Source: an uncultured Thermoleophilia bacterium
Lineage (GTDB): Bacteria; Actinomycetota; Thermoleophilia; UBA2241
NCBI GenBank assembly: GCA_963695395.1
Contig: CAVOGK010000012.1
Span: 205,372 to 269,371 of the forward strand
Length of the DNA stretch: 64,000 nucleotides
Direction of reading: 5' to 3'
Part shown: one piece after another, positions 18,062 through 41,203 of the stretch
How positions within the stretch are numbered: position 1 is the first letter of the stretch
Layout: every line of letters begins with the position of its first letter
Translations under genes and position numbers: made by a program
The notes under the pieces: model-generated
Database searches by the model: none
Seen by the model: only the letters and a program-made list of their open reading frames with translations
Told to the model about the DNA's origin: nothing

Positions 18062-18074
18062 CGTCGCGCTCCCG

Positions 18075-19511: not shown

Positions 19512-19536
19512 CCTGTCGTCCGCCGGGCGCCGCCGC

Positions 19537-19797: not shown

Positions 19798-19851
19798 GTT
19801 CGTCCCTTTCGGAGGATGGTGATGGGTCTGGTCGCGCTCGCCGGCGCCGCC

Positions 19852-22858: not shown

Positions 22859-24787
22859 TTACTCCTGTGGGACGTGCTTGCCGCGAGCCGTGTACTCCGT
22901 GTGCAGGAGCTTGTGGCTCTTGTGGCCGCAGGGGCCCTCAGTGAGGAACTCGGCGTACGTCTGCAGCACCGCCGGGTTCTCGTGTGACTTGCGCACCGCG
23001 TAGGCGCTGTCTTCCGAGTAGATGGCCTTCGCGCGGGCGGCGCGGATATCGGCGCTGGTCGGGATCGGCTGACCGCCGCCGCCCAGGCACCCGCCCGGAC
23101 AGGCCATGAATTCGATGAAGTGGCATTCGCTGAACTTGCCGCCGGCCTTGATGTCGTCCATGACCTTCTTGGCGTTGGCGGTGCCGTGGGCAACGGCGAC
23201 CTTGAGCGTCGCGCCGTTCAGCCAGTCCCAGTTCGGCACGAGGTGCGCCACGATCTCGGGCACCGGGCCGACCTTGGGGATGGTGAGCTCGGCGTACTTG
23301 ACGCCCTCGAAGCCGCGCAGGGGGATGATGTCGCCGTGGTCGTAGATGCTCTCGACCTTCTCGCCCGTGACCATCTCGATGACCGTGCGCAGCGCGGCCT
23401 CCATGACGCCGCCGGTGGCGCCGAAGATGACGCCGGAGCCGGTGGCCGACCCGAACGGGTCGTCGAAGTCGCTCTTGGGCAGGCTCGGCACGTGCAAGCC
23501 GGCCTCCTTGAACATCTTGCCGAGCTCACGTGTGGTGAGGCCGTAGTCGACGTCCTGGAAGCCCGAATCGTGCATCTCCGGCCGGTTGCACTCGAACTTC
23601 TTGGCCGAGCAGGGCATGAGGGCGACGCTGACGATGTTCTCGGGGTCGAGATCGAGCTTGTCTGCGTAGTACGTCTTGATGAGCGCGCCGAACATCTGCT
23701 GCGGGCTCTTGGCGCTCGAGGCGTTGGGCAGGTACTCGGGGTAGAAGTGTTCGAGGTACTTGACCCAGCCCGGCGAGCAGCTGGTGAACTGCGGCAGGGC
23801 GATGCTCTCGTCCTTCTCCACGAGGGCCTTGTACAGGCGCAGGATGAGCTCGGTGCCTTCCTCGATGATGGTGAGGTCGGCGGTGAAGTTGGTGTCGAAC
23901 ACCCTGTCGAAGCCCGCGCGGCGGAGCGCCGTGTTCATCTCGAAGGTGACCGGCGTGCCGGGTTCGAGGTCGAACAACTCGCCCATCGCCGAACGCGGCG
24001 CCGGGGCGGTCTGGATCACGACGTGCTTGTCGGGATCGTCGATCGCGGCCCACACGGCGTCGGTCTCGTCCTTGGCGTACAGGGCGCCGACCGGGCAGCG
24101 GTTGACGCACTGGCCGCAGTTGATGCAGACCGCGGAGCCGAGAGGCATGTCCTCGAAGGTCTCGATGGTGACCTTGTTGCTGCGGCCCACGGCCTCGAGC
24201 ACGCCGACTTCCTGGATGTCGATGCAGGTGCGGATGCAGCGGCGGCAGCGGATGCACTTGTTCATGTCGCGCATGACGGAGTAGCTCGAGGTGTCGGTCT
24301 CGAACAGTGGCTCGCTCGGGTGCCCGAAGGCGAACTCGGTGACGCCGTACTCCTCGGCCAGCGACTGCAGCTCGCAGTTGCCGTTGCGCACGCAGCTGTA
24401 GCACTCGCCGCAGTGCTCGCTGAGCAGCAGCTCGAGCACGTGCTTGCGGGCCATGCGGACCTTACGGTTGTGCGTGCTGATCTTCTGCTGGTTGACGACC
24501 GGGAACGTGCAGGCGGGCTGCAACGTCCGCTGGCCCTCGACTTCGACCACGCACATGCGGCACACGCCGGCCACATCGAGGTCGGGGTGGTCGCACAGCG
24601 TCGGGATCTTGATCCCGGCGGTCTTGGCGGCCTGGAGGATGGTCGTACCGAAGGGGACCTTGGTCTCGATGCCGTCGATCTCGATGCTCACCTGGGCGCC
24701 GATGGCGTCCGGGCTGGTGGTGGTGATGACGCGTCGGTGCTGCTGCGAGAGCGGCGCGCGATGGATCGGGGTGGTGGGATTGCTCAT
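22859..24787 (-). CDS. hydA: [FeFe]-hydrogenase catalytic subunit, M3-type (2Fe-2S + His-ligated 4Fe-4S + 2x4Fe-4S + H-domain), copy 1
   Basis: N-terminal Fe-S motifs (CDHP..CRMC, HCGECYSC..C, CIRCRRCIRTC, CINCGQCVNRCP). H-cluster motifs FTSCSPGW, MPCSAKKFE, EFMACPGGCLGGGGQP. ATG at 24787 follows a GAGGGAG RBS. Confidence 0.95.
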   Translation of the reverse strand: MSNPTTPIHRAPLSQQHRRVITTTSPDAIGAQVSIEIDGIETKVPFGTTILQAAKTAGIKIPTLCDHPDLDVAGVCRMCVVEVEGQRTLQPACTFPVVNQQKISTHNRKVRMARKHVLELLLSEHCGECYSCVRNGNCELQSLAEEYGVTEFAFGHPSEPLFETDTSSYSVMRDMNKCIRCRRCIRTCIDIQEVGVLEAVGRSNKVTIETFEDMPLGSAVCINCGQCVNRCPVGALYAKDETDAVWAAIDDPDKHVVIQTAPAPRSAMGELFDLEPGTPVTFEMNTALRRAGFDRVFDTNFTADLTIIEEGTELILRLYKALVEKDESIALPQFTSCSPGWVKYLEHFYPEYLPNASSAKSPQQMFGALIKTYYADKLDLDPENIVSVALMPCSAKKFECNRPEMHDSGFQDVDYGLTTRELGKMFKEAGLHVPSLPKSDFDDPFGSATGSGVIFGATGGVMEAALRTVIEMVTGEKVESIYDHGDIIPLRGFEGVKYAELTIPKVGPVPEIVAHLVPNWDWLNGATLKVAVAHGTANAKKVMDDIKAGGKFSECHFIEFMACPGGCLGGGGQPIPTSADIRAARAKAIYSEDSAYAVRKSHENPAVLQTYAEFLTEGPCGHKSHKLLHTEYTARGKHVPQE

Positions 24788-24806
24788 GGTCACTCCCTCG
24801 CTCTCG

Positions 24807-26003
24807 TCAGGCGCTCGGTGCGCGGTTGCTGATCTCGTCCTCGAAGCCCTCGAGGATGGAGAGGAATGCGCTGGGGCTCGTCTGCCCCAGGCCACACTTG
24901 GAGGCGACCGTCATCGTCTCGGCCAGAGCCTTGACGTCCGCCAGGAACTTGGGCGGGCATTCGCCCTTCTGGAGGAGCTGGACGGCCTGCAACATCTGCG
25001 GGTTGCCGAGGCGGCAGGGCGTGCACTGGCCGCAGCTCTCTTCGACGAAGAACTCGAGGAAGTTCTCGGCAACGTCGAGGATGTCGCGCTCGGGACCGAT
25101 GACCATCACGGAGCCGCCGGTCGGGATGCCTTCGAAGGCAAGCGCGCGGCTGAACTCCTTGGCCGGCACGCAGATGCCGCTGGCGCCGCCGATCTGGACG
25201 GCCTTGGCGCCCTGTCCGCCGACCTCCTCGAGCAGGTCGGCGACGGTGATGCCCCACGGGAACTCGTACACGCCGGGCTTCTCGCAGTCGCCGCTGATGC
25301 TGAAGAGCTTGTAGCCTGTCGACTTGTCGGTGCCGAACTCCTTGAACCAGTCTGTGCCCTTGGCGAAGATCGCCGCCACGGAGGCGAGCGTCTCGACGTT
25401 GTTGACGACGGTCGGGTTGTTCAGGAGGCCGGCGACCACCGGGAACGGCGGGCGGTTGCGCGGCTCGCCGCGGAAGCCCTCGAGGCTCTCGATGAGGGCC
25501 GTCTCCTCGCCGCACACGTACGCGCCGGCGCCCATGGCGGTGATGACGTCGAACTCGAAGCCTTCGACGCCCCCGACGCTGTGACCGAGCAGGCCCTGGC
25601 CGCGTCGCCTCTGGATGACCTCGTTGAGGTGCGGGCGCAGGTACGTGTACTCGGCGCGCAGGTAGATGATGCCGAGCGTCGCGCCGATCGCACGTCCGCC
25701 GATCGTCATGCCCTCGATGACGAGGTCGGCGAACCTGGTGAGGATGACGCGGTCCTTGAAGGTACCGGGTTCGCCCTCGTCGGCGTTGCAGATGATGTAC
25801 TTCTGGTCGGCCTTCTCCGCCGCGCAGAAGCCCCACTTCATGCCGGTGGGGAAGCCTGCGCCGCCGCGTCCTCTGATGTCGCTGTCGCGAACGAAGTCGA
25901 CGAGGTCGGCGCGGCTCATGGCCAGCGCGGCCTTGAGGCCGGCGTCGGCCTCGATGGTCTCGTAGGTGAGGGCGTTGCCCTGGGTCTCGATCATCGCGGG
26001 CAC
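24807..26003 (-). CDS. hydB: NuoF-like flavoprotein subunit (FMN/NADH, one 4Fe-4S), minimal 398-aa form
   Basis: GRGGAGFPTGMKW, NADEGEPGTFKDR, ESCGQCTPCR, CGLGQTS. GTG start follows GGAGGG. No N-terminal 2Fe-2S domain and no C-terminal ferredoxin domain. Confidence 0.9.
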   Translation of the reverse strand: MPAMIETQGNALTYETIEADAGLKAALAMSRADLVDFVRDSDIRGRGGAGFPTGMKWGFCAAEKADQKYIICNADEGEPGTFKDRVILTRFADLVIEGMTIGGRAIGATLGIIYLRAEYTYLRPHLNEVIQRRRGQGLLGHSVGGVEGFEFDVITAMGAGAYVCGEETALIESLEGFRGEPRNRPPFPVVAGLLNNPTVVNNVETLASVAAIFAKGTDWFKEFGTDKSTGYKLFSISGDCEKPGVYEFPWGITVADLLEEVGGQGAKAVQIGGASGICVPAKEFSRALAFEGIPTGGSVMVIGPERDILDVAENFLEFFVEESCGQCTPCRLGNPQMLQAVQLLQKGECPPKFLADVKALAETMTVASKCGLGQTSPSAFLSILEGFEDEISNRAPSA

Positions 26004-26006
26004 CGG

Positions 26007-26505
26007 TCAGCCCTCCTGGGTCGCAGCGGCGGACCCGGCAGGCGGCGACGATCTCGCGCGCCGTCTCCGGGGTGACCCGCGTGTGGACCTCGTCGTTCAC
26101 GAGCAGGGCGGGGCCCTGATCGCACATGCCGACGCAGCTCGCCCACTCGAGGGTGAAGAGCCCGTCGCTCGTGGTCTCGTCGAAGCCGACGCCGAGCTCG
26201 TCGGTGAGGGCCTCAGCGACGGCTTCCTTGCCGGCGAAGTCGCACGCGAGGGTGCCGCAGAGCCGGATCACGAACTGCCCCTCGGGGGCGCCGTGCAGGA
26301 AGGCGTAGAAGGAAGCGACGCTGTAGACCTCCACCGGGTGGATGTCGAGCGCGTCGGCGATGGTCTGCATGGATTCGGAGTCGACCTCGTGGAAGCGCCG
26401 CTTGACGTCTGCGAGGATCGGGATGAGAGAGCTTCTGCCCGGGCCGAGCTTCTCGACCAGGGCGGTGAGGTCGGCGCGGAGTTGATCTTGCTGGGTCGCT
26501 GGCAT
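26007..26505 (-). pseudogene. hydC: NuoE-like 2Fe-2S subunit (HydC-type) whose reading frame lacks a stop; net +1 frameshift near 26026-26034
   Basis: MPATQQDQ... with CGTLAC and CVGMC 2Fe-2S motifs. The frame runs on without a stop through all of hydB to 24790. Shifting one nt near GTCCGCCGCTGC gives ...AATQEG*, with TGA at 26007-26009 two codons before the hydB GTG. Start to that stop is 499 nt (3n+1). Confidence 0.75.
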
Positions 26506-26518
26506 CAGGAGTCCTCTC

Positions 26519-26893
26519 TCACTGCTCGAGGAGCTTCTTGACCTTGGCCACCAGGGTCTGTGGCTCAACGGGCTTGGGCTGGAACTCGTCGACGGGGACG
26601 ATCTCACCGTCCTTGTCGATGTTGAGGCCCATCGCGGCATTGACGCTGGTGAGCATGATGATCGGCACGTCGTTGCCGATCTTGCGGATCTCACGCGCCA
26701 TGCGGAGGCCGTCGTCAGGCTCCTCCATCATGACGTCGAGGATGAGCAGGTCAGGCTTGAGCTCCTCGAGCTTCTTCATCCCGTCGGCGCGATTCGACGC
26801 GCCCTCGACCTCGTAGCCCTCACGCTCGAGGACCAGGCGGCCGGCATCGACGATGTCCGGGTCGTCGTCAACGATGAGAATCTTGGGCACCAC
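26519..26893 (-). CDS. Stand-alone response-regulator receiver (CheY-like), first gene of hydrogenase operon 1
   Basis: ILIVDDD, phospho-acceptor LILDVMM, MLTS, PKP. 124 aa with no output domain. AAGGAG RBS and GTG start. Confidence 0.85.
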   Translation of the reverse strand: MVPKILIVDDDPDIVDAGRLVLEREGYEVEGASNRADGMKKLEELKPDLLILDVMMEEPDDGLRMAREIRKIGNDVPIIMLTSVNAAMGLNIDKDGEIVPVDEFQPKPVEPQTLVAKVKKLLEQ

Positions 26894-27112
26894 GCACTCC
26901 TTCGCTCGTTTCCGTTCCCCTTGGCGTCACCGGGTGGCGCGCCATCGCGGCCTTCCGAGGTCGTCCTTCGCCCGCGAAGCACGAGCTCGCGACAGGCGCG
27001 GGCACGGCGAGGATGGGCGAAAGAGACGATGATCGGTGCTGGCCGCTCACTCCACAGGATCCACGTTCCACTTGGCCTCAGCTGCACTGCAGTTCTAACG
27101 CATCGCGGCCGC

Positions 27113-27130
27113 TTGTGCAAGGGGTCACGA
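27113..27130. promoter_or_regulatory. Weak Rex-operator-like site (TTGTGCAAGGGGTCACGA) in the 330-nt region upstream of operon 1
   Basis: Two mismatches to the TTGTGAA-N4-TTCACAA consensus. On the minus strand it lies just downstream of a possible TTCACT-17-GATACT promoter. Confidence 0.25.
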
Positions 27131-27223
27131 GCGTCAGGGGTTAGTATCGCACATCTTCGCACACGAGTGAAGCCACCCCCTGGACGGGCCGGTCCGGCTG
27201 CGCGGAGAGGCGCGGCGGGCGCC

Positions 27224-28450
27224 CTAGAGCTGAGGCGCCGCCAGGCTCGCGGCATCGACCGCGGGCCCGGACTCAGGCGTGGATCCGGCCGGCGGCGCGT
27301 CGTGGAGGGTCACCGTGAACGTGCTGCCGACGCCGGGCTCGCTCCGCACCTGCGCCTCGCCGTCGTACATGTTGGCGATCTTGCGCACGGTGCTGAGGCC
27401 GAGCCCGCTGCCGAGGATCTTCACCGTCTGTTCGTTCTTGATCCGTTGGAACTCGTTGAAGAGCTTGCCGGCCTCCTCGGGCGTGAGGCCGATGCCGGTG
27501 TCGGCGACGGCGATGGTGACGGCGTCTCCCTTGCGGCTCAGCCGCACGGTGACGGAGCCGCCGTCGCGGTTGTACTTGACGGCGTTGGAGATGAGGTTGT
27601 TGAGGACGATCTCGGCCTCGCCGGGGTCGGCCAGGAGCTCGACGTCGTCGCCGTCCTCGAGCGTCACGGTGATGTCGCGGCGCCCGGCGTCGACGGCGAA
27701 CAGCTCCATCGACGCCTTGGCCAGCTCGCGCAGGTCGACCCTCGTGATCACCCGCTCGCGCTGGCCGGACTCGATGCGCGTGAGGTCGAGCAGGTCCATG
27801 ATCAGCTTCTTCATGCCGTCGACGCGCACGATGCTGCGCTCGACCATCTGCAGGTTCTGGTCGGCCTCGGTCGTGCGCAGGATGTTGAGGTAGCCCTCCA
27901 CCGCGTTGAGCGGCGCCTTGAGCTCGTGCGCGAGCACCGAGATGAAATTGAAGCGGATCTCGCGCTTCTCCTCGGCGAGCTTGCGCGCCTGCTTGCTGAG
28001 GATCAGCTGGCTGGTCGCCTTGCGCAGCGCGTACCGGAGCTCCTCGGGCGTGAACGGCTTGGCGAGGAAGTCGTAGGCCCCGAGCTTGGTCGCCTTGACC
28101 GCCGTCTCGAAGGTCGCATAGGCGGTGATCATGATGGTCAGCACCTCGCGCCCCTGGGAGCTCAAGGCGTCGAGGACGTCCATGCCACCGACGCCCGGCA
28201 GCTTCAGGTCGAGCAGCAGCAGATCGACCGACCCGCCCTCGCCGAGGTAGTCGAGGAAGTCCTCTCCGGTCGTGAAGTAGCGGAACGCGTAGTCGGCGTC
28301 GACGAGGACGTCGCGCACGTGCACACGGTACTTCTGGATGATGCGGCGCACGCCGAGGCAGAGCGCCTCCTCGTCGTCGACCATGACGACCTGCAGCGTG
28401 GCCTGCTGCGGGTCCATGAGGCTCTCGCGGATTGTCGGTTCGACGTTCAT
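27224..28450 (-). CDS. Hybrid receiver-histidine kinase (N-terminal REC, then HisKA + HATPase)
   Basis: REC (VVMVDDE, LLLLDLKLPG, ITAY, AKP) followed by H-box LAHELKAPLNAV and N/G boxes (NLISNAVKYN, GSGLGLS). Confidence 0.85.
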   Translation of the reverse strand: MNVEPTIRESLMDPQQATLQVVMVDDEEALCLGVRRIIQKYRVHVRDVLVDADYAFRYFTTGEDFLDYLGEGGSVDLLLLDLKLPGVGGMDVLDALSSQGREVLTIMITAYATFETAVKATKLGAYDFLAKPFTPEELRYALRKATSQLILSKQARKLAEEKREIRFNFISVLAHELKAPLNAVEGYLNILRTTEADQNLQMVERSIVRVDGMKKLIMDLLDLTRIESGQRERVITRVDLRELAKASMELFAVDAGRRDITVTLEDGDDVELLADPGEAEIVLNNLISNAVKYNRDGGSVTVRLSRKGDAVTIAVADTGIGLTPEEAGKLFNEFQRIKNEQTVKILGSGLGLSTVRKIANMYDGEAQVRSEPGVGSTFTVTLHDAPPAGSTPESGPAVDAASLAAPQL

Positions 28451-28453
28451 CGC

Positions 28454-30508
28454 TCAGCTCCCGGTGATCACCTGCAGGCTCGCCGCAACGTCCGTGGCGG
28501 ACTCGAGTCGCGGCAAGGAGATGGTGAACGTCGTCCCCGTGGGGCCGGCCTCGGGGTCGGCGTTCGACTCCACGGTGATCCGGCCGCGGTGCATCTTGAC
28601 GATGCCGTGCGTGACCGCAAGGCCGAGGCCCGTGCCCTTGCCGACCTGCTTGGTCGTGAAGAACGGGCTGAACAGCTTGTCGAGGTTCTCCTTGGGGATG
28701 CCGGTGCCCTCGTCCTCTACCGCGATCACGACGTCGTCCTCGGTCCCGTCGAGCGTGACGGTGATCGCGCCGCCGTCGGGCATCGCGTGCTGGGCGTTGG
28801 TGAGCAGGTTGGTGAGCACCTGGACGATCTGATCGCCGTCGAGCTCGGCGACCGGGTCTTCGAGGTGGCCGGCCACTTCGACGGAGATGCCCTCGGCGAC
28901 GGGGATCGTGCGCATGACCTCGGCCACCAGGTCGTTGAGGTCGGTCGGCTGACGCACCACGCGGCTCTGGCGGGCGAAGTTGAGCAGGCCGGAGATGATC
29001 TTCTTGCAGCGGTTGGCCTGGTCGACGATGAGTTTGACGTCGGCGGAGACGGCGGGGTCGCTCTCGCAGTCCTCGAGCAGCAGGTTGGCGTGCAGCAGGA
29101 GGATGCCGAGCGGGTTGTTGACCTCGTGGGCGATGCCGGCGGCGAGCTGGCCCATGCTGGCGAGCTTCTCGCTCTTGACCAGCGCCTCCTTGGTCGTCTC
29201 CAGCGAACGGTGCGACTCCTGGAGCTCGTCGACGGTCTTGTGCAGCTCGTCCACCGAGTAGGGCAGGCACATCTCGACCTCGGCCAGGCCCTGCCAGATC
29301 GCGACCGCGTGGTGGCTGCAGGAGTCGTAGCCGCAGGCGCCGCAGTCGAGCTCGTCCTCGGGGGCGTACTTGTTCATACGCGCCAGGATCTCCTGGATCT
29401 GCTCCGGCGTCGGCATGTCGTCGAAGCGCTGGTCGAAGGGAGCGAAGGTCCTTGACAGATCGACGTCGCGGGCGTCCGCGACCGCCGTCTCCCAGGCCGC
29501 CTGGTCGAAGTCGGCCTGGCGGGCGCGGGTCTCGGCGCTGACGTCCGCGCGGCGCTTGAAGACCGGTTCCTCACAGCTGAAGCCGGCGCCCATGATGCAG
29601 CCTTCGCAGCAGAGGATATCGAGCAGGCGCGCCTCGGTATCGCCGTGCTCGAAGTCGGTGATCGCATCCACGAGGTTGGCGCGTCCGTCGGCGCTCACGA
29701 TGTCGCCGCTGAGGAGGTCCTCGTCCAGTTCGGCGGCCTGGAGGAGGCCACGGCTGATGGGGAAGAGGGCCCCGAGGCTGCCGCGCGGCGGGTCGAAGTC
29801 ATCACCCGTGCCGTCGTGCGTGCTGAGGCTCACCCCGCGGCCGGCGAGCAGGGTGCGAAGCTCCACATAGGTGAGCGCGGCGTGCACCTCGTCCTCGAAC
29901 TGCTCGTAGCGCGCCTCGCCCTTCTTGGCGATGCACGGCCCGATGAAGACGATCTTGCACTCGGGGCCGTACTTGTGATGCAGCACGCGCGCGATCGCCA
30001 GCATCGGCGAGACGATGGGCGCCAGGTTGTCGAGGATGTCCGGGTGGTACTTGCGCACGTAGCTGACCACCGCCGGGCAGCTGGTGGCGATGTAGCGCCC
30101 GTCGTCCTGTTCGAGCAGGCGGGCGTACTCGGCGGCCACGAGGTCGGCGCCGAAGCTGACCTCGTGGACGCTCGCGAACCCGAGCTCGCGGAGGGCGCCG
30201 ACCAGTCCGGCCGTGCCGCACTCCGTGAACTCGGCCGGATAGCTCGGCGCCACGATCGCCGCGACCGGCGCGTCGCCGGCGAGCAGGTCCTCGGTGGCCT
30301 CGATGCCGCTGAGCACCTGCTTGGCGTTCTGGCTGCAGACGGTGACGCAGTTGCCGCACCCGATGCAGCGCGTCTGGATGACGCTGGCCTGCCCATCGAG
30401 GATCTGGATGGCCTTGGCGGGGCATTCACGGACGCACGTGTAGCACCGCCGGCACTTCTCGCGGATCGTGGTGACGAGTTGCAGGTTCGGCACGCGGTCT
30501 TCGTTCAT
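28454..30508 (-). CDS. Sensory-type [FeFe]-hydrogenase-like protein fused to a histidine kinase (2x4Fe-4S ferredoxin + H-domain + Cx2Cx4Cx16C + HisKA/HATPase)
   Basis: CRRCYTCVRECP, CIGCGNCVTVCS. Diverged H-domain motifs ATSCPAVV, GPCIAKKGE, LCCEGCIMGAG. Then DCGACGYDSC...C, H-box GIAHEVNNPL and a complete HATPase. ATG at 30508 preferred (the ORF opens at 30580). Confidence 0.85.
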   Translation of the reverse strand: MNEDRVPNLQLVTTIREKCRRCYTCVRECPAKAIQILDGQASVIQTRCIGCGNCVTVCSQNAKQVLSGIEATEDLLAGDAPVAAIVAPSYPAEFTECGTAGLVGALRELGFASVHEVSFGADLVAAEYARLLEQDDGRYIATSCPAVVSYVRKYHPDILDNLAPIVSPMLAIARVLHHKYGPECKIVFIGPCIAKKGEARYEQFEDEVHAALTYVELRTLLAGRGVSLSTHDGTGDDFDPPRGSLGALFPISRGLLQAAELDEDLLSGDIVSADGRANLVDAITDFEHGDTEARLLDILCCEGCIMGAGFSCEEPVFKRRADVSAETRARQADFDQAAWETAVADARDVDLSRTFAPFDQRFDDMPTPEQIQEILARMNKYAPEDELDCGACGYDSCSHHAVAIWQGLAEVEMCLPYSVDELHKTVDELQESHRSLETTKEALVKSEKLASMGQLAAGIAHEVNNPLGILLLHANLLLEDCESDPAVSADVKLIVDQANRCKKIISGLLNFARQSRVVRQPTDLNDLVAEVMRTIPVAEGISVEVAGHLEDPVAELDGDQIVQVLTNLLTNAQHAMPDGGAITVTLDGTEDDVVIAVEDEGTGIPKENLDKLFSPFFTTKQVGKGTGLGLAVTHGIVKMHRGRITVESNADPEAGPTGTTFTISLPRLESATDVAASLQVITGS

Positions 30509-30530
30509 CGGGTCGCCGTCCGGGCGGCGG

Positions 30531-30935
30531 TCACGCGGCGCCGAGGAGCTCGGCGATCTTTGCCAGAAGCGTCTGCGCATCGATGGGCTTGTCGAAGTAG
30601 GCGTCCACGTTCATCTTGGCGAGGTCGTCGGCGGAGTCGGGCTGGAAGTTCAACCCGAGGGCGCTGCTCACCGACGTGCTGATGATGATCGGCACCTCGG
30701 CCGTGCGCGGGTCCTCCTTCAGCTGGGCGGAGAAGGCGAAGCCGGCGTCGATGCTCGTCATCATCAGGTCGGTGATGACCAGGTCCGGAGTCTCGGCGTC
30801 GATGCGCGCGAGCGCCTCGGTGGGGTTGGTGGCGGTGACCACGCGGTGGCCGGCCCCCTCGAGGATGATGCGGTTGATCTCGAGGAAGTCGAAGTCGTCG
30901 TCGACGATGAGTATCAGTGCCTGATCCGCGCTCAT
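30531..30935 (-). CDS. Stand-alone response-regulator receiver, paralogue of 26519-26893
   Basis: LIVDDD, VITDLMM, ISTS, DKP. 134 aa with no output domain. Confidence 0.85.
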   Translation of the reverse strand: MSADQALILIVDDDFDFLEINRIILEGAGHRVVTATNPTEALARIDAETPDLVITDLMMTSIDAGFAFSAQLKEDPRTAEVPIIISTSVSSALGLNFQPDSADDLAKMNVDAYFDKPIDAQTLLAKIAELLGAA

Positions 30936-31065
30936 GATCCGCCTTCAGTATACCGGCCTGTTCGCCGGGCTTCCGCGACGGCCCCGGAGGCGGCCCCGGT
31001 CTCCCGGGGCCGCCTCGCGGGCGCGCCGCCCGCGCGCCCGGCCGTCGTCTTCCGTGCGCCGCGTC

Positions 31066-32838
31066 TCAGACGCGGTCGAGCTCGATGTAGTGGGTGTGCA
31101 GGAGGTGATGCGAGATCTCGCCGCACGGCGCCCCGAGGTACTCCTCGTACAGGGCGCAGACGGCCGGGTTCTCGTGCGACTTGCGCAGCTCGCGACCCTC
31201 GTCCTCGCGGTAGATCGCCGCGATGCGCTTCTTGCGCACCTCGTTGGTCGTGAAGCGCGGCTGCCCGCCGCCGCCGATGCAGCCGCCGGGGCAGGTCATG
31301 ACCTCGACGAAGTGGTACTCGGCCTCGCCGCTCTTGACCTGGTCGATGACCTTCTGGGCGTTGCCGAGGCCGTGGGCCACGGCGACCTTGAGGTCGGCGC
31401 CCTCGAGGAAGGCCCAGTCGCCCTTCGCTCCCTCGACCTTGACGGACGCCACCTTCACGCCGTCGAGGCCCTCGATGGGCTCGACGTGCAGGTTGGGGAA
31501 GGGGAACGGCGTCTCGGTGACGATCTCCCAGGCCGTGCGCAGGGCCGCCTCCATGACGCCGCCGGTGTTGGCGAAGATGTCGGCGGCGCCGGTGCTGATG
31601 CCCAGCGGCGCGTCCATCTGCTCGTCGGGCAGGCTGCGAAAGTCGATGCCGGCCTGCTTGATGAGCGCGCCGAGCTCGCGCGTGGTGAGCACGATGTCGA
31701 CGTCCTGCACGCCGCTGTCGTTCATCTCCGGGCGCGCGGCCTCGTACTTCTTGGCCGTGCAGGGCATGACCGAGACGACGACCATGTCCTCCGGCTTCAC
31801 GCCGATCTTCTCGGCGTAGTACGTCTTGGCGATCGCCCCGAACATCTGCTGCGGGCTCTTGCAGGTGCTCAGGTTGTCGAGCATGTCGGGGTTGAAGTGC
31901 TCCATGTAGTTGATCCAGCCCGGGGAGCAGCTGGAGAACTGTGGCAGCGCGACCTGCTCGCCGTCCACGAGTGCCTTCTTGAGGCGCACGAGCAGCTCCG
32001 TGCCTTCCTCCATGATCGTGAGGTCGGCGGTGAAGTCGGTGTCGAAGACGGCGTCGAAGCCGAGGCGGCGGAGCGCGGCGACCATCTTGCCGGTCACCAG
32101 GGTGCCGGCCGGGTAGTCGAAGCACTCGCCGAGCGCGGCGCGGATCGCCGGCGCGGTCTGCACGATGACCGTCTTGGTGGGATCCTCGAGCGCCGCCCAG
32201 ACCTCGTCGATCTGGTTGCGCTCGCTGATGGCGCCCACCGGGCACACGGCGGCGCACTGGCCGCACTGCACGCAGACGACGTCGCTCAGGTTCTGCGAGA
32301 AGGCGGGGCCGATGAGGGTGGCGAAGCCGCGGCCCTGGGCGAACAGGCCGCCGACCCCCTGGACCTCGTTGCACACGGTCACGCAGCGGCGGCAGGAGAT
32401 GCACTTGCCGGTGTCACGGATGAGCGCCGGGGTGCTGTCGTCGAGCATCCTGACGGTCTTCTCGCCCTCGTAGCGCAGGTCGCCGATACCGAGCTCGTCG
32501 GCGAGGGTCCGGAGCTCGCAGTCCGCGGACCGGGCGCAGATCTTGCAGTCGCCGTCGTGCTCCGACAGGAGCAGCTCGACGACCATCTGGCGGCCGTCGC
32601 GGACCTTGCCGCTGTTGGTCTTGACGACCATGCCGTCGGTCGCCGGCTGGCTGCACGAGGCGACCAGCGTGCGTGCGCCCTCCACCTCGACGAGGCAGAC
32701 GCGGCAGGCGCCGATGGACTGGACGTCGTCGAGGTGGCAGAGGGTGGGGATCTTCACGCCGGCCTGGCGGGCCGCCTGAAGCACCGTGGCGCCCTCCGGC
32801 ACCTCGACGCTGATGTCGTCAATAGTCAGGGTTGGCAT
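31066..32838 (-). CDS. hydA: [FeFe]-hydrogenase catalytic subunit, M3-type, copy 2
   Basis: Same domain order as copy 1. H-cluster motifs FSSCSPGW, MPCTAKKYE, EVMTCPGGCIGGGGQP. ATG at 32838 follows an AAGGAGAG RBS. Confidence 0.95.
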   Translation of the reverse strand: MPTLTIDDISVEVPEGATVLQAARQAGVKIPTLCHLDDVQSIGACRVCLVEVEGARTLVASCSQPATDGMVVKTNSGKVRDGRQMVVELLLSEHDGDCKICARSADCELRTLADELGIGDLRYEGEKTVRMLDDSTPALIRDTGKCISCRRCVTVCNEVQGVGGLFAQGRGFATLIGPAFSQNLSDVVCVQCGQCAAVCPVGAISERNQIDEVWAALEDPTKTVIVQTAPAIRAALGECFDYPAGTLVTGKMVAALRRLGFDAVFDTDFTADLTIMEEGTELLVRLKKALVDGEQVALPQFSSCSPGWINYMEHFNPDMLDNLSTCKSPQQMFGAIAKTYYAEKIGVKPEDMVVVSVMPCTAKKYEAARPEMNDSGVQDVDIVLTTRELGALIKQAGIDFRSLPDEQMDAPLGISTGAADIFANTGGVMEAALRTAWEIVTETPFPFPNLHVEPIEGLDGVKVASVKVEGAKGDWAFLEGADLKVAVAHGLGNAQKVIDQVKSGEAEYHFVEVMTCPGGCIGGGGQPRFTTNEVRKKRIAAIYREDEGRELRKSHENPAVCALYEEYLGAPCGEISHHLLHTHYIELDRV

Positions 32839-32855
32839 CCTCTTGCTCTCCTTGC

Positions 32856-35800
32856 TCACGAGCCGTACTTGCCGTAGTCGCAACGCAGGCAGCGCCTCGC
32901 CTCAGCGACGGCCACCTTTGCGGCCCAGCCCAGCTCGACCTCGTCGAAGTTGGTGACGCGGGCACCCACGGCCAGCTCCTCGACCTGGTGACGATCGACC
33001 AGTTCGGGGTCGGCGTCGGGGTCGAAGAACGTGGGCGGCTCGATGTCGCGGCGCCAGAACGCGTGATTGGCGCCGGTGAGGAGCTCGTCCATGCCGGCGG
33101 CTGCCTTCTCGCCGGCGCCGATGGCCTCGACCACCGACGACGGGCCGGTGGCGGCGTCGCCGCCGGTGAAGACCCAGTCGACCGAGGTCTGGCCGGTGTT
33201 CGGGTCGGCGGCGAGGTAGCCCCAGCGGTTGAGCTCGACGGGGGTGCCGTCCAGGACGGCCGGCGCGTCGAGCTTCTGCCCGATCGCGGCGATGACGGTG
33301 TCGGCCTCGACCACGAAGTCGGGGTTGTGGCCGGCGACCGGACGGCGACGGCCGCTGCGGTCGTAGTCGCCCAGCGCCATCTCCTTGCAGCGCACGCCGG
33401 TGACGTTGCCGCTCGCGTCGCGGAGGATCTCCTCCGGGGCGACGAGCGTCATGATGTCGATGCCCTCGAGGTCGGCGGCGTCGATCTCCTCGCCCCACGC
33501 CGGCATCTGCGCCCGGGTGCGACGGTAGAGGATCTTGACGCTCTCGGCGCCGAGGCGCAGGGCGGTGCGGGCGGCGTCGATGGCCGCGTTGCCGCCGCCG
33601 ATCACGGCGACGTTCTTGCCGACTTCGCCGGTGCCGTGCACGTTGTACTGCTTGAGGAACGACAGGCCGTCGTACACGCCGGGGCCCTCCTCACCGGGGA
33701 TGCCGATGCCCATGCCGGCGGGGGCGCCGACGCCGACGAACACGGCCTCGTATCCCTCGTCCTTGAGGCTCTTGAGGGTGAAGTCGCGGCCGAGCGCCTT
33801 GCCGTACTCGAAGCGGGCGCCCATGGCCTCGATCATCTCGATCTCGCGCTCGAGCTCGGGGCGCGGCAGGCGGTAGGCCGGGATGGCCTGGACGAGCATG
33901 CCGCCGGCCTTGGGTTCAGCCTCGAACACGACCGGCTTGTAGCCCAGCCGGGCGAGGAAGTAGGCGGCGGAGAGGCCGGCGGGACCGGAGCCGACGACGG
34001 CCACCTTGCGGGCCGCGTTCTCGGCGTTCTCCAGGATCTCCGGCAGCTGCGCGTCCTTCTCCTGCTCCACCATGAAGCGCTTGACGTGGCGGATCGCGAG
34101 CGACCCGTCCAGGCTCGAGCGCATGCACTTGCTCTCGCAGGGGTGGAAGCAGACGCGGGCGCAGATGCTGGCCAGCGGGTTGCGCTCGCGGTGCAGCTTG
34201 AGGGCGTCGTCGTAGCGCTCCTCGCCCACGAGGCTCACGAAGCCGGGGATGTTGACGCTGGCCGGGCACGCGTTGGAGCAGCGCGCCTTGAACATCGCCC
34301 CGCATACGCCAGCTTCGCAGTACTTGTCCTTGATGTGGGCCTCGTACTCGTGACGGAAGTGACGGATCGTCGAGAGCACGGGGTTGGCGGCCGTCTGGCC
34401 GAGGCCGCAGAGCGCGGTCTGGCTGATCGACTCGCCGAGGGCGACGAGGCGCTCGATGTCGCCCTCTTCGCCCTCACCGTTGCAGATGCGCTCGACGATC
34501 TCGAGCATCCGCTTGGTGCCGACGCGGCACGGCGGGCACTTGCCGCAGCTCTCTTCCTGGGTGAACTCGAGGAAGAAGCGTGCGATGTCGACCATGCACG
34601 TGTCCTCGTCCATGACGATGACGCCGCCGGAGCCCATGATCGCGCCGAGCTCCTGCAGGGTGTCGTAGTCGACGGGCACGTTGAGGTGCTCCTTGGGGAT
34701 GCAGCCGCCGGACGGCCCGCCGAGCTGCGCGGCCTTGTAGGCCTTGTCGCCCGGGATGCCGCCGCCGACCTCGTAGATGAGCTCGCCGAGCTGCATGCCG
34801 ATCGGGACCTCGACGAGGCCGGTGTGCTGCACGTTGCCGCCGAGCGCGAACACCTTGGTGCCCTTGCTGCTCTCGGTGCCGGTGCTGGCGTACCACTCCG
34901 CGCCCTTGAGGACGATCGGCGCGATGTTGGCGAAGGTCTCCACGTTGTTGAGCACGCTGGGCTTGCCCCAGAGGCCCGAGACCGCCGGGAACGGCGGGCG
35001 CGGACGCGGCTCGCCGCGGTGCCCCTCGATCGAGGTCATGAGCGCGGTCTCCTCGCCGCAGACGAAGGCGCCCGAGCCCATGCGGATCTCGAGGTCGAAG
35101 TCGAAGCCACTGCCCATGATGTCGTTGCCGAGCAGGCCGTACTCGCGCGCCTGCCCGAGAGCGTGCTCGAGGCGCTCGACGGCGAGCGGGTACTCGGCGC
35201 GCACGTAGACGTAGCCCGTGTGCGCGCCGATCGCGAAGGCGCCGATGACCATGCCCTCGATGAGCGAGTGCGGGTCGCCCTCGAGCACCGAGCGGTCCAT
35301 GAACGCGCCGGGGTCGCCCTCGTCCGCGTTGCAGAGGATGTACTTGACGTCGTTGTCCTGCTGCTGGGCGAAGCGCCACTTCATGCCCGGTGGGGAAGCC
35401 GGCGCCGCCGCGGCCGCGCAGGCCGCTGGCCAGGACCTCTTCGACGACCTGCTCGGGGGTCATCTCGGTGAGCACCTTGGCGAGGGCCTGGTAGCCGTCG
35501 CGGGCGATGTACTCGTCGATGTTGAGCGGGTCGATGATGCCGGAGTTGCGCAGCACGATCTTGACCTGGCGGTTGAAGAACGGGATGTCGTTCATCTCTG
35601 CCTGGGACTTCTCGGTGCCGGGCGCGTGGCTCACGAGACGCTCGACCACACGGCCCTTGAGGAGGTGCTCCTCGACGATCTCGGGCACGTCGTCGACCTT
35701 GATGTTCTGGTAGAAGACGCCGTCGGGGTAGACGAGCGCCACGGGGCCCTGCACGCAGGGGCCGAGGCAGCCGGTCTCGACGACCTCGATCTCGCCGGCG

Positions 35801-35910
35801 AGCTCGCGCTCCTTGAGCTCGGCGCGCACGGCCTCGCTCACGTCGAGGGCGCCGGAGGCGATGCATCCACCGCCGGTGCAGATCAGGAAGTGACTTCTCA
35901 CATCAGCCAT
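32856..35910 (-). pseudogene. hydB: Giant flavoprotein subunit: thioredoxin-like 2Fe-2S + NuoF (FMN/NADH/4Fe-4S) fused to a GltD/NfnB-like FAD/NAD(P)H oxidoreductase; net +1 frameshift at 35386-35388
   Basis: N-terminal part (ORF 34474-36087 from ATG 35910) ends ...GRGGAGFPTG. The next frame continues MKWRFAQQQ...NADEGDPGAF...ESCGKCPPCR...CGLGQTA, then GltD-like CEAGVC..CSNACP..CARVCFHPCESKC, VAVVGSGPAGLSAAY, VIGGGNAAID. The break is at a GGG run (ACCGGGCATGAAG). Total 3055 nt (3n+1). Confidence 0.85.
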
Positions 35911-35927
35911 AGTCGGATCACTCGCTC

Positions 35928-36299: not shown

Positions 36300-36300
36300 G

Positions 36301-40099: not shown

Positions 40100-40102
40100 G
40101 GG

Positions 40103-41143: not shown

Positions 41144-41203
41144 TGTTCGCTCCCGGGCGGTGGGTTGCGGTCTCGGTCGCCGAGTTCGTTACAGAACGAA
41201 CGC

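What the first reader, a model, noticed from the sequence alone, without database searches (positions are those of the whole stretch)
28454..30508. Ferredoxin + H-cluster-like domain fused in one polypeptide to a HisKA/HATPase kinase: candidate direct H2-sensing histidine kinase
Seen in sequence:
- Two CxxCxxCxxxCP ferredoxin motifs.
- An [FeFe]-hydrogenase H-domain with all three signature motifs present but diverged: L1 ATSCPAVV (canonical TSCCPxW, so one of the two adjacent Cys is missing), L2 GPCIAKKGE, L3 LCCEGCIMGAG.
- A Cx2Cx4Cx16C motif.
- With no PAS domain in between, a coiled-coil linker, the H-box GIAHEVNNPL and a full ATPase domain.

Established knowledge: sensory ('group C') [FeFe]-hydrogenase homologues are known from genome surveys, and the biochemically studied ones are PAS-containing HydS proteins.

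Inference: to my knowledge a kinase-fused form has not been characterised. It would be a one-protein gas sensor that couples H-cluster redox state to autophosphorylation.
Basis: partly seen in the sequence, partly recalled or inferred. Interest (0 to 1): 0.8.

Follow-up and report, generated by a model that had tools for sequence, protein, structure and literature searches.

The report
Hydrogenase-like sensor fused to histidine kinase
This gene encodes a hydrogenase-type iron-sulfur sensor joined directly to a signalling kinase, most likely a hydrogen-gas sensor; the type is widespread and already noted in genome surveys, but no member has been tested in the laboratory.

Summary
Window 28454..30508 (- strand) is an intact 684-aa gene. 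It encodes two N-terminal [4Fe-4S] motifs, an [FeFe]-hydrogenase H-domain, a Cx2Cx4Cx16C cluster motif, then HisKA and HATPase_c with no PAS domain.

All four H-cluster Cys ligands are present and conserved in the family. The proton-relay Cys and the two pocket Met are replaced, as in putative sensory (group C/D) hydrogenases.

The gene lies between two multimeric group-A [FeFe]-hydrogenase operons, with HydG/HydF/HydE downstream and a Rex gene upstream. Receiver and receiver-kinase genes flank it.

It is not rare. Dozens of 50%-identity clusters share the full architecture, across at least 10 bacterial phyla. Nearly all sit in the same cassette: HydC-HydB-HydA, sensor-kinase, REC, REC-kinase.

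The literature already lists kinase-linked group C enzymes (HydDB) and a "BfuT" sensory hydrogenase with a histidine kinase domain. None has been characterised biochemically.

New here: the last cluster Cys and the phospho-His are joined by one predicted helix. Its length varies mostly in steps of seven residues, which suggests register-locked mechanical coupling.

Verdict: a new (Thermoleophilia) member of a known but uncharacterised kind. Interest is moderate.

The parts
28454..30508 (-). Sensor-kinase gene (684 aa): HydS-type sensory [FeFe]-hydrogenase module fused to a HisKA/HATPase_c kinase
   Evidence: Homologues of the same length and architecture.
30323..30463 (-). Two [4Fe-4S] ferredoxin-type motifs (residues 16-62). 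The ligands are C19/22/25/29 and C48/51/54/58.
   Evidence: Pfam Fer4 and Fer4_10. All eight Cys are invariant in close relatives and invariant or nearly so in alignment A3.
29585..30268 (-). [FeFe]-hydrogenase H-domain (residues 81-308). L1 contains C144, L2 contains C192, L3 contains C301 and C304.
   Evidence: PF02906 at 147 bits. HMMER alignment to CpI and TkHydA. Foldseek matches to solved [FeFe]-hydrogenases.
29267..29344 (-). C-terminal accessory cluster motif Cx2Cx4Cx16C (C389, C392, C397, C414)
   Evidence: PF04060. Invariant in 71 diverse relatives. This motif is a shared feature of groups C and D (PMC8163306).
28967..29266 (-). Continuous signalling helix plus DHp (residues 415-514). 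The phospho-acceptor His461 is at 29126..29128.
   Evidence: AF2 helix 415-480. HisKA hit. The C414-to-His spacing keeps a heptad register across the family.
28508..28840 (-). HATPase_c catalytic domain (residues 557-667) with N, G1, F and G2 boxes
   Evidence: Invariant residues. ZraS is the best structural match, TM 0.80.
30531..30935 (-). Single-domain response regulator (REC only), 22 bp upstream of the sensor-kinase
   Evidence: Pfam Response_reg. Sequence. Conserved neighbour.
27224..28450 (-). REC-HisKA-HATPase_c hybrid kinase, starting 3 bp after the sensor-kinase stop codon
   Evidence: A homologue lies directly downstream in 33 of 34 distant loci that have downstream DNA.
26519..26893 (-). 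Second single-domain response regulator, the first gene of the downstream hydrogenase operon
31066..36949 (-). Upstream multimeric group-A [FeFe]-hydrogenase operon:
- NuoE-like HydC.
- A small thioredoxin-like [2Fe-2S] protein.
- NuoF-GltD fusion HydB (frameshifted near 35386).
- HydA, at 31066..32883.
   Evidence: The intact equivalent is seen in L001.
22859..26505 (-). Downstream group-A [FeFe]-hydrogenase operon: HydC (about 26035..26505), HydB (24807..26003), HydA (22859..24760)
   Evidence: (NCBIfam FeFe_hydrog_A6, 789 bits).
15593..22550 (-). GAF histidine kinase, HydG, TM1266-like protein, aspartase-like lyase, HydF and HydE. HydG, HydF and HydE are the H-cluster maturases.
38534..41143 (-). 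Rex repressor gene (40103..41143) and a second sensor-like protein (38534..40099). The latter has HATPase_c_2, Fer4, a degenerate H-domain and the Cx2Cx4Cx16C motif.
27113..27130 (.). Rex-operator-like palindrome in the intergenic region upstream of the second hydrogenase operon. A second site lies at 41203..41220, upstream of rex.
   Evidence: 3 matches against 0.23 expected. The block is conserved in L001.

Best explanation
The gene encodes a cytoplasmic, probably dimeric, one-polypeptide sensor kinase. Its input module is a HydS-type (putative sensory, group C-like) [FeFe]-hydrogenase.

**Proposed mechanism (inferred).**
- HydE, HydF and HydG, encoded in the same locus, would install the [2Fe] subcluster on the [4Fe-4S] cubane held by C144, C192, C301 and C304.
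- H2 binding and slow turnover at this proton-relay-deficient H-cluster would shift its redox and conformational state.
- That change would pass through the domain holding the C-terminal Cx2Cx4Cx16C cluster. Its last ligand, C414, caps a continuous helix that carries the phospho-acceptor His461 exactly 47 residues later.
- The result would be a change in autokinase or phosphatase activity.
- Phosphoryl groups would then flow to the adjacent single-domain receivers and to the REC-kinase hybrid, tuning the two flanking electron-bifurcating-type hydrogenases. Rex sensing of NADH/NAD+ would act alongside at the promoters.

**Shown here:**
- the domain architecture;
- conservation of the ligands and pocket residues;
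- the sensory-type substitutions;
- intact kinase catalytic motifs;
- the conserved gene cassette;
- the single predicted helix and its heptad-periodic length.

**Inferred, not shown:**
- [2Fe] incorporation;
- H2 as the physiological signal;
- the direction of kinase control;
- the phosphotransfer partners;
- the final output.
For: **H-domain and cofactor site**
- Pfam domains all score above their curated thresholds.
- The alignment to CpI pairs C300 with C144, C355 with C192, C499 with C301 and C503 with C304.
- In the same alignment K358 pairs with K195, A230-P231-S232 with A87-P88-S89, and S323-P324 with S167-P168.
- These residues are invariant in 33 close relatives. They are invariant or nearly so in 28 direct fusions at 34-80% identity and in 71 diverse sensor proteins.

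**Sensory-type substitutions**
- C299 is Ser, M353 is Gly, M497 is Leu.
- Proton-pathway residues are lost: E279 is Tyr, E282 aligns to a gap, R286 is Gln, S319 is Ala.
- This matches the group C/D pattern described in PMC8163306 and PMC10055695.

**Structure**
- The AF2 model has pLDDT 93.3 and pTM 0.76, with one helix over residues 415-480.
- Foldseek matches the N-terminal part to solved [FeFe]-hydrogenases and the C-terminal part to the kinase ZraS, TM 0.80.

**Linker length**
- The spacing from the last cluster Cys to the phospho-His is 33, 40, 47, 54 or 68 residues in 41 of 45 cluster representatives.
- Of the 19 representatives that differ from 47, 15 differ by multiples of 7.

**Genomic context**
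- HydE, HydF and HydG and two HydABC-type operons lie in the same locus.
- Synteny is identical in a relative at 79% identity.
- The cassette HydCBA, sensor-kinase, REC, REC-kinase recurs in at least 10 phyla.

**Modularity**
- The same sensor module is fused elsewhere to PAS, sigma-54 activator, GGDEF, MCP and HisKA_3 outputs. This marks it as a signal-input domain.
Against: - No group C or D enzyme has yet been shown to sense H2 in vivo.
[quoted passage not shown] A purely redox relay through that cluster is therefore unlikely, and the coupling I propose is conformational and untested.
- Conserved Cys ligands alone do not prove a [2Fe] site, because FeS-only hydrogenase-like proteins also keep them.
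- L3 has CxGC spacing, one residue shorter than CpI's CxxGC.
- No DNA-binding output protein is encoded in the cassette, so the regulated target is unknown.
- A few divergent family members lack one ligand: P0147 lacks the L1 Cys and P0160 lacks the second L3 Cys.
Confidence: 0.65

Rival explanations
1. It is a general redox sensor rather than an H2 sensor. The N-terminal [4Fe-4S] clusters would exchange electrons with the ferredoxin pool or with the neighbouring HydABC complex. The kinase would then report cellular redox poise, with the H-domain acting as an FeS-only scaffold or merely equilibrating with H2.
For: - Three accessory clusters are fully conserved.
- The gene always sits beside ferredoxin/NADH-linked hydrogenases and often beside Rex.
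- Conserved Cys ligands alone cannot distinguish a full H-cluster from a plain [4Fe-4S] site.
Against: - Residues that specifically hold the [2Fe] subcluster ligands are conserved: K195 (pairs with K358), APS 87-89 and SP 167-168.
- The characterised relatives TmHydS and TamHydS do bind a functional H-cluster (PMC10055695, PMC8163306).
- A dedicated redox sensor, Rex, is already encoded in the locus.
Confidence: 0.17
2. It senses an H-cluster inhibitor, CO or O2, rather than H2. In this reading it would shut down or protect the oxygen-sensitive hydrogenases.
For: H-clusters bind CO and react with O2. TamHydS shows altered CO and O2 reactivity (PMC8163306). Gas-sensing kinases for O2, NO and CO are well established (my own knowledge: FixL, DosS).
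Against: Nothing in the sequence or the gene neighbourhood points to it. The locus is devoted to H2 metabolism. Sensory relatives are reported to be more CO-tolerant, not more sensitive (PMC8163306).
Confidence: 0.06
3. It is chiefly an accessory 'T' subunit of the HydABC complex, as the name BfuT implies. Its kinase and the receiver-only partners would control the enzyme post-translationally, not gene expression. This is a rival about the output rather than the input.
For: - The gene follows hydA directly in most loci.
- The cassette contains only receiver-only proteins and another kinase, with no DNA-binding regulator.
- Rex-like operators already account for transcriptional control.
Against: No evidence of physical association exists. 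An orphan DNA-binding regulator could be encoded elsewhere in the genome. Related sensor modules are fused directly to sigma-54 transcription activators, which shows that transcriptional output is used in the family.
Confidence: 0.3

Closest known systems
Putative sensory [FeFe]-hydrogenase HydS of Thermotoga maritima (group C, M2f subclass)
   Same: - Two N-terminal [4Fe-4S] motifs, an H-domain with all four ligand Cys, and the C-terminal Cx2Cx4Cx16C motif.
- Loss of the proton-relay Cys, with M353 replaced by Gly.
- The gene lies next to a group-A multimeric hydrogenase (PMC8163306, PMC10055695).
   Different: - TmHydS ends in a PAS domain and has no enzymatic output. Here the PAS domain is absent and a complete HisKA/HATPase_c kinase follows the cluster motif directly.
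- C299 is Ser here. I recall Ala in TmHydS, from memory.
- M497 is Leu here and Ser in TmHydS.
- PAS-only proteins form a separate cluster in a crude NJ tree of the sensor module.
'BfuT' group C3 [FeFe]-hydrogenase with a histidine kinase domain (Hydrogenedentota, Caldithrix abyssi; PMC11406978), and HydDB group C1 'histidine kinase-linked (putative)' (PMC5037454)
   Same: A sensory-type hydrogenase carrying a histidine kinase domain, encoded directly downstream of bfuA/hydA of an electron-bifurcating-type operon. This is the arrangement I find here and in at least 10 phyla.
   Different: - Those reports are genome annotation and structure prediction only.
- I could not retrieve their sequences, so I could not confirm that they are direct, PAS-less fusions orthologous to this one.
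- This member comes from an uncultured Thermoleophilia (Actinomycetota) lineage and lies between two hydrogenase operons.
- The HATPase_C-bearing C1 proteins described in Hydrogenedentota, which have poorly recognisable H-cluster motifs, resemble the other gene in this window (38534..40099) rather than the target.
Thermoanaerobacter mathranii HydS (group D, M2e)
   Same: Same cluster complement and the same loss of the proton pathway, with M497 replaced by Leu. It is encoded upstream of a trimeric group-A hydrogenase and next to a histidine-kinase-like ATPase (PMC8163306).
   Different: It has no fused output domain, and M353 is Ser rather than Gly. Its C-terminal cluster was found not to respond to H2 (PMC13104023).
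[NiFe] regulatory hydrogenase HoxBC with the kinase HoxJ (group 2b), Cupriavidus necator / Ralstonia eutropha
   Same: It works like this system is proposed to work. A slow, inhibitor-tolerant hydrogenase reports H2 to a histidine kinase that controls hydrogenase genes (PMC5665086; HydDB table in PMC5037454).
   Different: The metal site and fold are unrelated ([NiFe]). The sensor and the kinase are separate proteins in a complex, and HoxJ has a PAS-like domain. There is no homology to the protein here.
Cofactor-based gas-sensing histidine kinases (FixL, DosS/DosT, NreB), from my own knowledge
   Same: A single polypeptide in which a metal cofactor domain controls a HisKA/HATPase kinase through a helical linker.
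   Different: Those use haem or a simple FeS cluster in PAS or GAF folds and sense O2, NO or CO. None uses a hydrogenase H-domain.

Membership tests
[FeFe]-hydrogenase H-domain proteins | Match to the H-domain profile (Pfam PF02906) above the curated threshold | tested here: met
   147.3 bits against a cutoff of 22.1, residues 81-308 covering profile positions 2-245 of 245. Foldseek top hits are solved [FeFe]-hydrogenases.
[FeFe]-hydrogenase H-domain proteins | Four Cys that ligate the H-cluster (CpI C300, C355, C499, C503) | tested here: met
   - They correspond to C144, C192, C301 and C304 in the HMMER alignment to CpI.
- They are invariant in close relatives.
- They are invariant or nearly so in alignments A3 and A2.
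- L3 spacing is CxGC, one residue shorter than in CpI.
[FeFe]-hydrogenase H-domain proteins | Pocket residues that hold the [2Fe] subcluster ligands (CpI A230-P231-S232, P324, K358) | tested here: met
   They correspond to A87-P88-S89, S167-P168 and K195 and are invariant in close relatives. K195 varies in the most divergent family members.
[FeFe]-hydrogenase H-domain proteins | Bound [2Fe] cofactor and H2 turnover | not testable with these tools
   This needs maturation plus FTIR/EPR and activity assays. HydE, HydF and HydG are encoded in the locus.
Putative sensory [FeFe]-hydrogenases, group C (M2f, HydS-like) | Loss of the proton-relay Cys (C299) and of the group-A proton pathway | tested here: met
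   C299 is Ser143, E279 is Tyr, E282 aligns to a gap, R286 is Gln and S319 is Ala. The C299 position is never Cys in 28 direct fusions.
Putative sensory [FeFe]-hydrogenases, group C (M2f, HydS-like) | Replacement of M353 and M497 flanking the [2Fe] site | tested here: met
   Gly190 and Leu299. Compare with PMC8163306.
Putative sensory [FeFe]-hydrogenases, group C (M2f, HydS-like) | Two N-terminal [4Fe-4S] motifs and the C-terminal Cx2Cx4Cx16C motif | tested here: met
   The Cys are invariant.
Putative sensory [FeFe]-hydrogenases, group C (M2f, HydS-like) | C-terminal PAS domain after the four-Cys motif | tested here: not met
   No PAS hit. Only 47 residues separate C414 from H461, modelled as a single helix. 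The protein is therefore not M2f in the strict sense; it is a PAS-less, kinase-fused variant of the same sensor module.
Putative sensory [FeFe]-hydrogenases, group C (M2f, HydS-like) | Encoded next to a group-A hydrogenase operon | tested here: met
   Flanked by two HydCBA operons. The arrangement is conserved.
Putative sensory [FeFe]-hydrogenases, group C (M2f, HydS-like) | Assignment to C1, C2 or C3 by the HydDB classifier or by a reference phylogeny | not testable with these tools
A crude NJ tree places the target with other kinase fusions, apart from this window's group-A HydAs and apart from the PAS-only cluster. PMC11406978 reports that kinase-domain forms are called C3.
HisKA-type sensor histidine kinases (two-component systems) | DHp domain with a phospho-acceptor His in an H-box | tested here: met
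   HisKA at 44 bits. H461 in AHEVNNPL is invariant.
HisKA-type sensor histidine kinases (two-component systems) | Catalytic ATP-binding domain with N, G1, F and G2 boxes | tested here: met
   - HATPase_c at 97 bits.
- N571, D599/G601/G603, F616 and G627-L630 are invariant in A3; N567, F613 and G625 are nearly invariant.
- The ZraS structure matches at 34% identity.
HisKA-type sensor histidine kinases (two-component systems) | Cognate receiver protein encoded nearby | tested here: met
   Receiver genes lie 22 bp upstream and, as part of the REC-kinase, 3 bp downstream. Their acceptor Asp, Thr/Ser and Lys are present. Which one is the partner is unknown.
HisKA-type sensor histidine kinases (two-component systems) | Autophosphorylation and phosphotransfer | not testable with these tools
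   This requires biochemistry.
[NiFe] regulatory hydrogenase / HoxJ system | [NiFe] large and small subunits that partner a PAS-containing kinase | tested here: not met
   No [NiFe]-hydrogenase domain was found in the protein or in its neighbours. It is a functional analogue only.

The most novel reading that the evidence does not exclude
The sensor-kinase, the single-domain receiver(s) and the REC-kinase hybrid may form an ancient, cross-phylum H2-responsive multi-kinase module attached to electron-bifurcating-type [FeFe]-hydrogenase operons. In this module the hydrogenase fold would act as a true gas-sensing input. Its state would be passed mechanically, through the C-terminal [4Fe-4S] domain and a register-locked coiled coil, straight to the phospho-accepting His. 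That would make it the first one-polypeptide H2 sensor kinase, and a route to settle how sensory [FeFe]-hydrogenases signal.
Probability: 0.45. Interest if true: 0.65.

Novelty: new member of a known kind. Interest (0 to 1): 0.45.

Why it matters
How putative sensory [FeFe]-hydrogenases pass on an H2 signal is an open question. The regulatory role of HydS rests mainly on its PAS domain (PMC10055695). A 2026 study concluded that the interaction partners still need to be identified and that redox change of the C-terminal cluster is probably not the signal (PMC13104023).

A form in which the sensor is fused directly to a kinase gives a built-in, assayable output: autophosphorylation with and without H2. 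It also gives defined candidate partners in the same operon.

The conserved seven-residue periodicity of the linker points to a concrete, testable coupling mechanism. H2-responsive kinases could also serve as biosensor parts.

The value lies in the family as a whole. This window adds a Thermoleophilia member with unusually complete context: two hydrogenase operons, the maturases, Rex and a second sensor-like protein.

Tried and rejected
- **Shallow AF2 model.** The first AlphaFold run used 33 close relatives and gave pLDDT 66, with the L3 region and the linker unreliable. I discarded it in favour of the run with 71 diverse sequences, pLDDT 93.
- **Cys geometry.** Model coordinates are not exposed, so I could not measure the geometry of the Cys around the H-cluster site.
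- **Promoter and terminator scan of 26300..31300.** No promoter-like sites, and terminator-like sites at the chance level. The operon structure is inferred only from the gene spacing.
- **Rfam scan.** Only four tRNAs, all elsewhere in the window.
- **Papers not held.** Greening et al. 2016 (ISME J) and Zheng et al. 2014 (J Bacteriol) were not in the library. What I say about the original group C definition comes from papers that cite them.
- **Wrong ORF calls.** My first ORF choices for several neighbours were in the wrong frame: 30932..32404, 24790..26694 and 26776..27255. Third-position GC content corrected them.
- **A frameshift I withdrew.** I suspected one in the first NuoE-like gene (36365..36946). 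It aligns in one frame to the intact relative, so I dropped the idea.
- **Tail clustering.** Single-linkage clustering of the C-terminal tails merged PAS-only, PAS-kinase and kinase tails. I replaced it with labelling against exemplar domains.
- **Pseudogene or artefact reading.** Rejected. The ORF is intact, the same length as its homologues, and under clear constraint.
Full report
**1. The observation**

- The ORF list gives 28454..30580 on the minus strand.
- The upstream receiver gene ends at 30531 and an ATG lies at 30508.
- Pfam finds the following domains, all above curated thresholds:
  - a ferredoxin-type dicluster domain, residues 16-62;
  - Fe_hyd_lg_C, residues 81-308 (147 bits, cutoff 22);
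  - the 'FeS' four-Cys domain PF04060, residues 387-416;
  - HisKA, residues 452-514;
  - HATPase_c, residues 557-667.
- No PAS domain is found.
The one slip is that the second ferredoxin motif ends in CS rather than CP.

**2. Is the H-domain a plausible H-cluster site?**

HMMER alignments to solved hydrogenases pair the residues as follows:

| CpI residue | Role | Residue here |
|---|---|---|
| C300, C355, C499, C503 | H-cluster ligands | C144, C192, C301, C304 |
| K358 | holds a [2Fe] ligand | K195 |
| A230-P231-S232 | holds a [2Fe] ligand | A87-P88-S89 |
| S323-P324 | holds a [2Fe] ligand | S167-P168 |
| C299 | proton relay | Ser143 |
| E279, E282, R286, S319 | proton pathway | Tyr, gap, Gln, Ala |
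| M353 | flanks the [2Fe] site | Gly190 |
| M497 | flanks the [2Fe] site | Leu299 |

- So the 'missing' Cys in L1 is the proton-relay Cys, not a ligand.
- This substitution pattern is the one described for putative sensory groups C and D. Those groups also share the two N-terminal clusters and the Cx2Cx4Cx16C motif (PMC8163306, PMC10055695).
- L3 reads CxGC, one residue shorter than in CpI, throughout the family.
- Conservation:
  - All ligand Cys, the eight ferredoxin Cys, the four C-terminal Cys, His461 and the kinase N/G1/F/G2 residues are invariant among 33 relatives at 64-89% identity.
  - They are invariant or nearly so among 28 direct fusions at 34-80% identity.
- Structure:
  - With a 71-sequence alignment, AlphaFold gives pLDDT 93.3 and pTM 0.76.
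  - Foldseek matches the N-terminal two-thirds to solved [FeFe]-hydrogenases: DdHydAB with target-normalised TM 0.61-0.68, also CbA5H, TmHydA and CpI.
  - It matches the C-terminal third to the kinase ZraS, TM 0.80.
  - No sensory hydrogenase appeared among the sequence or structure matches in the PDB copy searched.

**3. Surroundings**

Third-position GC content picks out the true frames. Profile searches then give a continuous minus-strand locus. In order of transcription it contains:

1. Rex (40103..41143).
2. A 521-aa protein with an N-terminal HATPase_c_2, a ferredoxin domain, a degenerate H-domain and the four-Cys motif (38534..40099).
3. DRTGG-like and PHP genes, then a small HATPase_c protein.
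4. Hydrogenase operon 1:
   - NuoE-like HydC;
   - a thioredoxin-like [2Fe-2S] protein;
   - a NuoF-GltD fusion (HydB);
   - HydA (31066..32883).
5. A receiver-only protein (30531..30935).
6. The target (28454..30508).
7. A REC-HisKA-HATPase hybrid that starts 3 bp after the target's stop codon (27224..28450).
8. A second receiver-only protein (26519..26893).
9. Hydrogenase operon 2: HydC, HydB, HydA (22859..26505).
10. A GAF kinase.
11. HydG, a TM1266-like protein, an aspartase-like lyase, HydF and HydE.

The sensor-kinase therefore sits between two multimeric group-A hydrogenase operons, with the H-cluster maturases in the same gene cluster.

Rex-operator-like palindromes occur three times in the window against 0.23 expected.
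- One lies upstream of rex, at 41203..41220.
- One lies in the 330-bp gap ahead of operon 2, at 27113..27130. It sits inside a non-coding block that is conserved in a relative.

**4. Relatives and distribution**

- The word-indexed search lists 120 clusters at 64-99% identity, almost all of about 684 aa with the same domain set.
  - Those that carry an organism name come from Thermoleophilia MAGs.
  - NCBI calls them '[Fe-Fe] hydrogenase large subunit C-terminal domain-containing protein'.
  - JGI calls them 'signal transduction histidine kinase/iron only hydrogenase large subunit-like protein'.
- A relative at 79% identity, on a 2.1-Mb contig, has the same gene order from Rex to the lyase.
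- The exhaustive search of 50%-identity representatives finds dozens of clusters that match the target end to end at 35-53% identity.
- In one genome per species, full-length matches (38-56% identity) occur in MAGs labelled as:
  - Planctomycetota, including Candidatus Kuenenia;
  - Desulfobacterota;
  - Verrucomicrobiota;
  - Bacteroidota;
  - Ignavibacteriota;
  - Elusimicrobiota;
  - Spirochaetota;
  - Bdellovibrionota;
  - Myxococcota;
  - Neomarinimicrobiota.
- I ran tblastn with the window's proteins against 36 of these loci.
  - A REC-kinase homologue lies directly downstream in 33 of the 34 loci that have downstream DNA.
  - A single-domain receiver usually lies beside it.
  - HydC-HydB-HydA lies directly upstream in most loci.
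  - HydG/E/F or a second HydCBA operon follows, and Rex is often nearby.
  - The Ignavibacteriota loci repeat the window's two-operon arrangement.

**5. A modular sensor**

Among 106 complete sensor modules in the top hits, the output after the four-Cys motif was labelled as follows (Pfam on 20 exemplars; labelling by similarity). The remaining 17 were unlabelled.

| Output after the four-Cys motif | Representatives |
|---|---|
| HisKA kinase, direct | 40 |
| PAS only (TmHydS type) | 21 |
| sigma-54 activator (direct, or after a PAS domain) | 14 |
| PAS-kinase | 5 |
| kinase-REC | 2 |
| PAS-kinase-REC-REC | 2 |
| GGDEF | 2 |
| MCP signalling domain | 2 |
| GAF-GAF-kinase | 1 |
| HisKA_3 kinase | 1 |

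- The counts are biased towards kinases, because the query itself contains a kinase.
- The result shows that this hydrogenase module behaves as an interchangeable signal-input domain.
- In a crude neighbour-joining tree without support values, all these proteins separate from the window's group-A HydAs. The PAS-only proteins form their own cluster, and the target falls within a large set of kinase fusions.

**6. Mechanistic clue**

- The last ligand of the C-terminal cluster (C414) is followed at once by a predicted 66-residue helix (415-480) that carries His461.
- Across the 50%-identity representatives, the C414-to-His distance is 33, 40, 47, 54 or 68 residues in 41 of 45 cases.
- Of the 19 cases that differ from 47, 15 differ by multiples of seven.
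- In the alignment the indels are seven-residue blocks.
- The hydrophobic positions V419, L422, V426, L429, L436 and L443 follow an a/d heptad pattern. All but V419 are invariant in close relatives.
- This is the signature of a coiled coil whose register matters. It argues that the cluster domain and the DHp domain are mechanically coupled.
- It fits the recent report that the C-terminal cluster of TamHydS is not reduced by H2 and may instead play a structural role in signalling (PMC13104023).
- The relatedness of the sequences means these counts are not independent events.

**7. Comparison with what is known**

- The sensor half meets every tested feature of group C sensory hydrogenases except the PAS domain. 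It is thus a PAS-less, kinase-fused variant of the HydS module.
- The architecture is not new to the literature.
  - HydDB lists group C1 as 'histidine kinase-linked (putative)' (PMC5037454).
  - A 2024 study of Hydrogenedentota describes group C3 'BfuT' proteins with a histidine kinase domain encoded next to bfuABC.
  - That study cites a HydDB entry from Caldithrix abyssi and notes bfuT downstream of bfuA in cultured Bacteroidota (PMC11406978).
  - I could not fetch those sequences to confirm orthology.
- The same paper notes C1 proteins with a HATPase_C domain and poorly recognisable H-cluster motifs. That description fits the other protein in this window (38534..40099) rather than the target.
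- All biochemistry so far concerns TmHydS (with PAS) and TamHydS (no output domain). I found no characterisation of a kinase-fused form.
- The closest functional analogue is the [NiFe] regulatory hydrogenase with the kinase HoxJ. It is unrelated in sequence and is built from separate proteins.

**8. Verdict**

- The interpretation as a candidate H2-sensing kinase is the best-supported reading. I put about 0.65 on H2 as the signal, and near certainty on the architecture.
- The claim of novelty is overstated. This is a new Thermoleophilia member of a widespread, already catalogued but biochemically untouched class.
- Its interest is moderate. It would not surprise a hydrogenase specialist. The family does, however, offer a direct experimental handle on an open question, namely how sensory [FeFe]-hydrogenases signal.
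- The heptad-locked linker and the conserved REC / REC-kinase cassette are concrete, testable additions.

Noticed in passing
window 38534..40099 (-): A second sensor-like hydrogenase homologue of 521 aa.
- It has an N-terminal HATPase_c_2 (RsbW-like) domain and a ferredoxin domain.
- Its H-domain match is weak and partial (E 2e-9). Cys are still present at L1 (SPVCPAVV), L2 (SCPSQRS, with the Lys lost) and L3 (ICDGGCFG).
- It also carries a Cx2Cx4Cx16C motif.
- It follows rex, and the arrangement is conserved in L001.

It resembles the HATPase_C-bearing 'C1' proteins with poorly recognisable H-cluster motifs described in PMC11406978. Its function is unknown.
   Followed up: partly
window ~38311-38316, ~37816-37824, ~35386, ~26010-26035 (- strand genes): Four genes change reading frame relative to their intact counterparts in relative L001:
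- the DRTGG-like gene;
- the PHP gene;
- the NuoF-GltD HydB (1017 aa in L001);
- the C-terminus of the second NuoE-like HydC, which lacks an in-frame stop codon.

At 35386 the cause looks like one extra G in a G run. These are probably homopolymer indel errors of the assembly, although true pseudogenes are not excluded. The target gene itself is intact.
   Followed up: partly
window 27113..27130 and 41203..41220: Rex-operator-like palindromes (TTGTGAA-N4-TTCACAA with 2-3 mismatches).
- One lies about 60 bp upstream of rex.
- One lies in the 330-bp gap ahead of the second hydrogenase operon. It sits within a block of roughly 75 bp that is nearly identical in L001 (13294..13311).

This suggests that Rex controls both operons.
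   Followed up: partly
loci L002-L037 (match at about 8001-10000 in most): The cassette HydC-HydB-HydA, sensor-kinase, single receiver, REC-kinase hybrid is conserved across at least 10 phyla. It contains no DNA-binding regulator. The output of this multi-kinase arrangement is unexplained.
   Followed up: partly
proteins P0190, P0198, P0181, P0192, P0205, P0180, P0164, P0184: The same hydrogenase sensor module is fused in other organisms to:
- sigma-54 activator plus HTH, either directly or after a PAS domain;
- GGDEF;
- an MCP signalling domain;
- a HisKA_3 kinase;
- GAF-GAF-kinase;
- PAS-kinase-REC-REC.

The one-component sigma-54 and GGDEF forms would link H2 directly to transcription or to c-di-GMP.
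   Followed up: partly
loci L007, L030, L036, L037 (about 270-3250, - strand): Bacteroidales loci carry a second, divergently oriented sensor-module gene upstream of hydC, matching residues 1 to about 440 of the target. They also have the kinase fusion downstream of hydA. This agrees with the 'two bfuT' observation in PMC11406978.
   Followed up: no
window 32856..35910 (-) and 22859..26505 (-): The two flanking hydrogenases differ.
- Operon 1 has a HydB fused to a GltD-like NAD(P)H/FAD module and an extra thioredoxin-like [2Fe-2S] protein.
- Operon 2 is a plain HydCBA whose HydA matches NCBIfam 'NADH-dependent [FeFe] hydrogenase, group A6'.

The sensor cassette lies exactly between them.
   Followed up: no
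window 18075..19797 (-): An aspartase/fumarase-like lyase and a TM1266-like 'iron-only hydrogenase system regulator' lie between hydG and hydF. The same arrangement is seen in L001.
   Followed up: no
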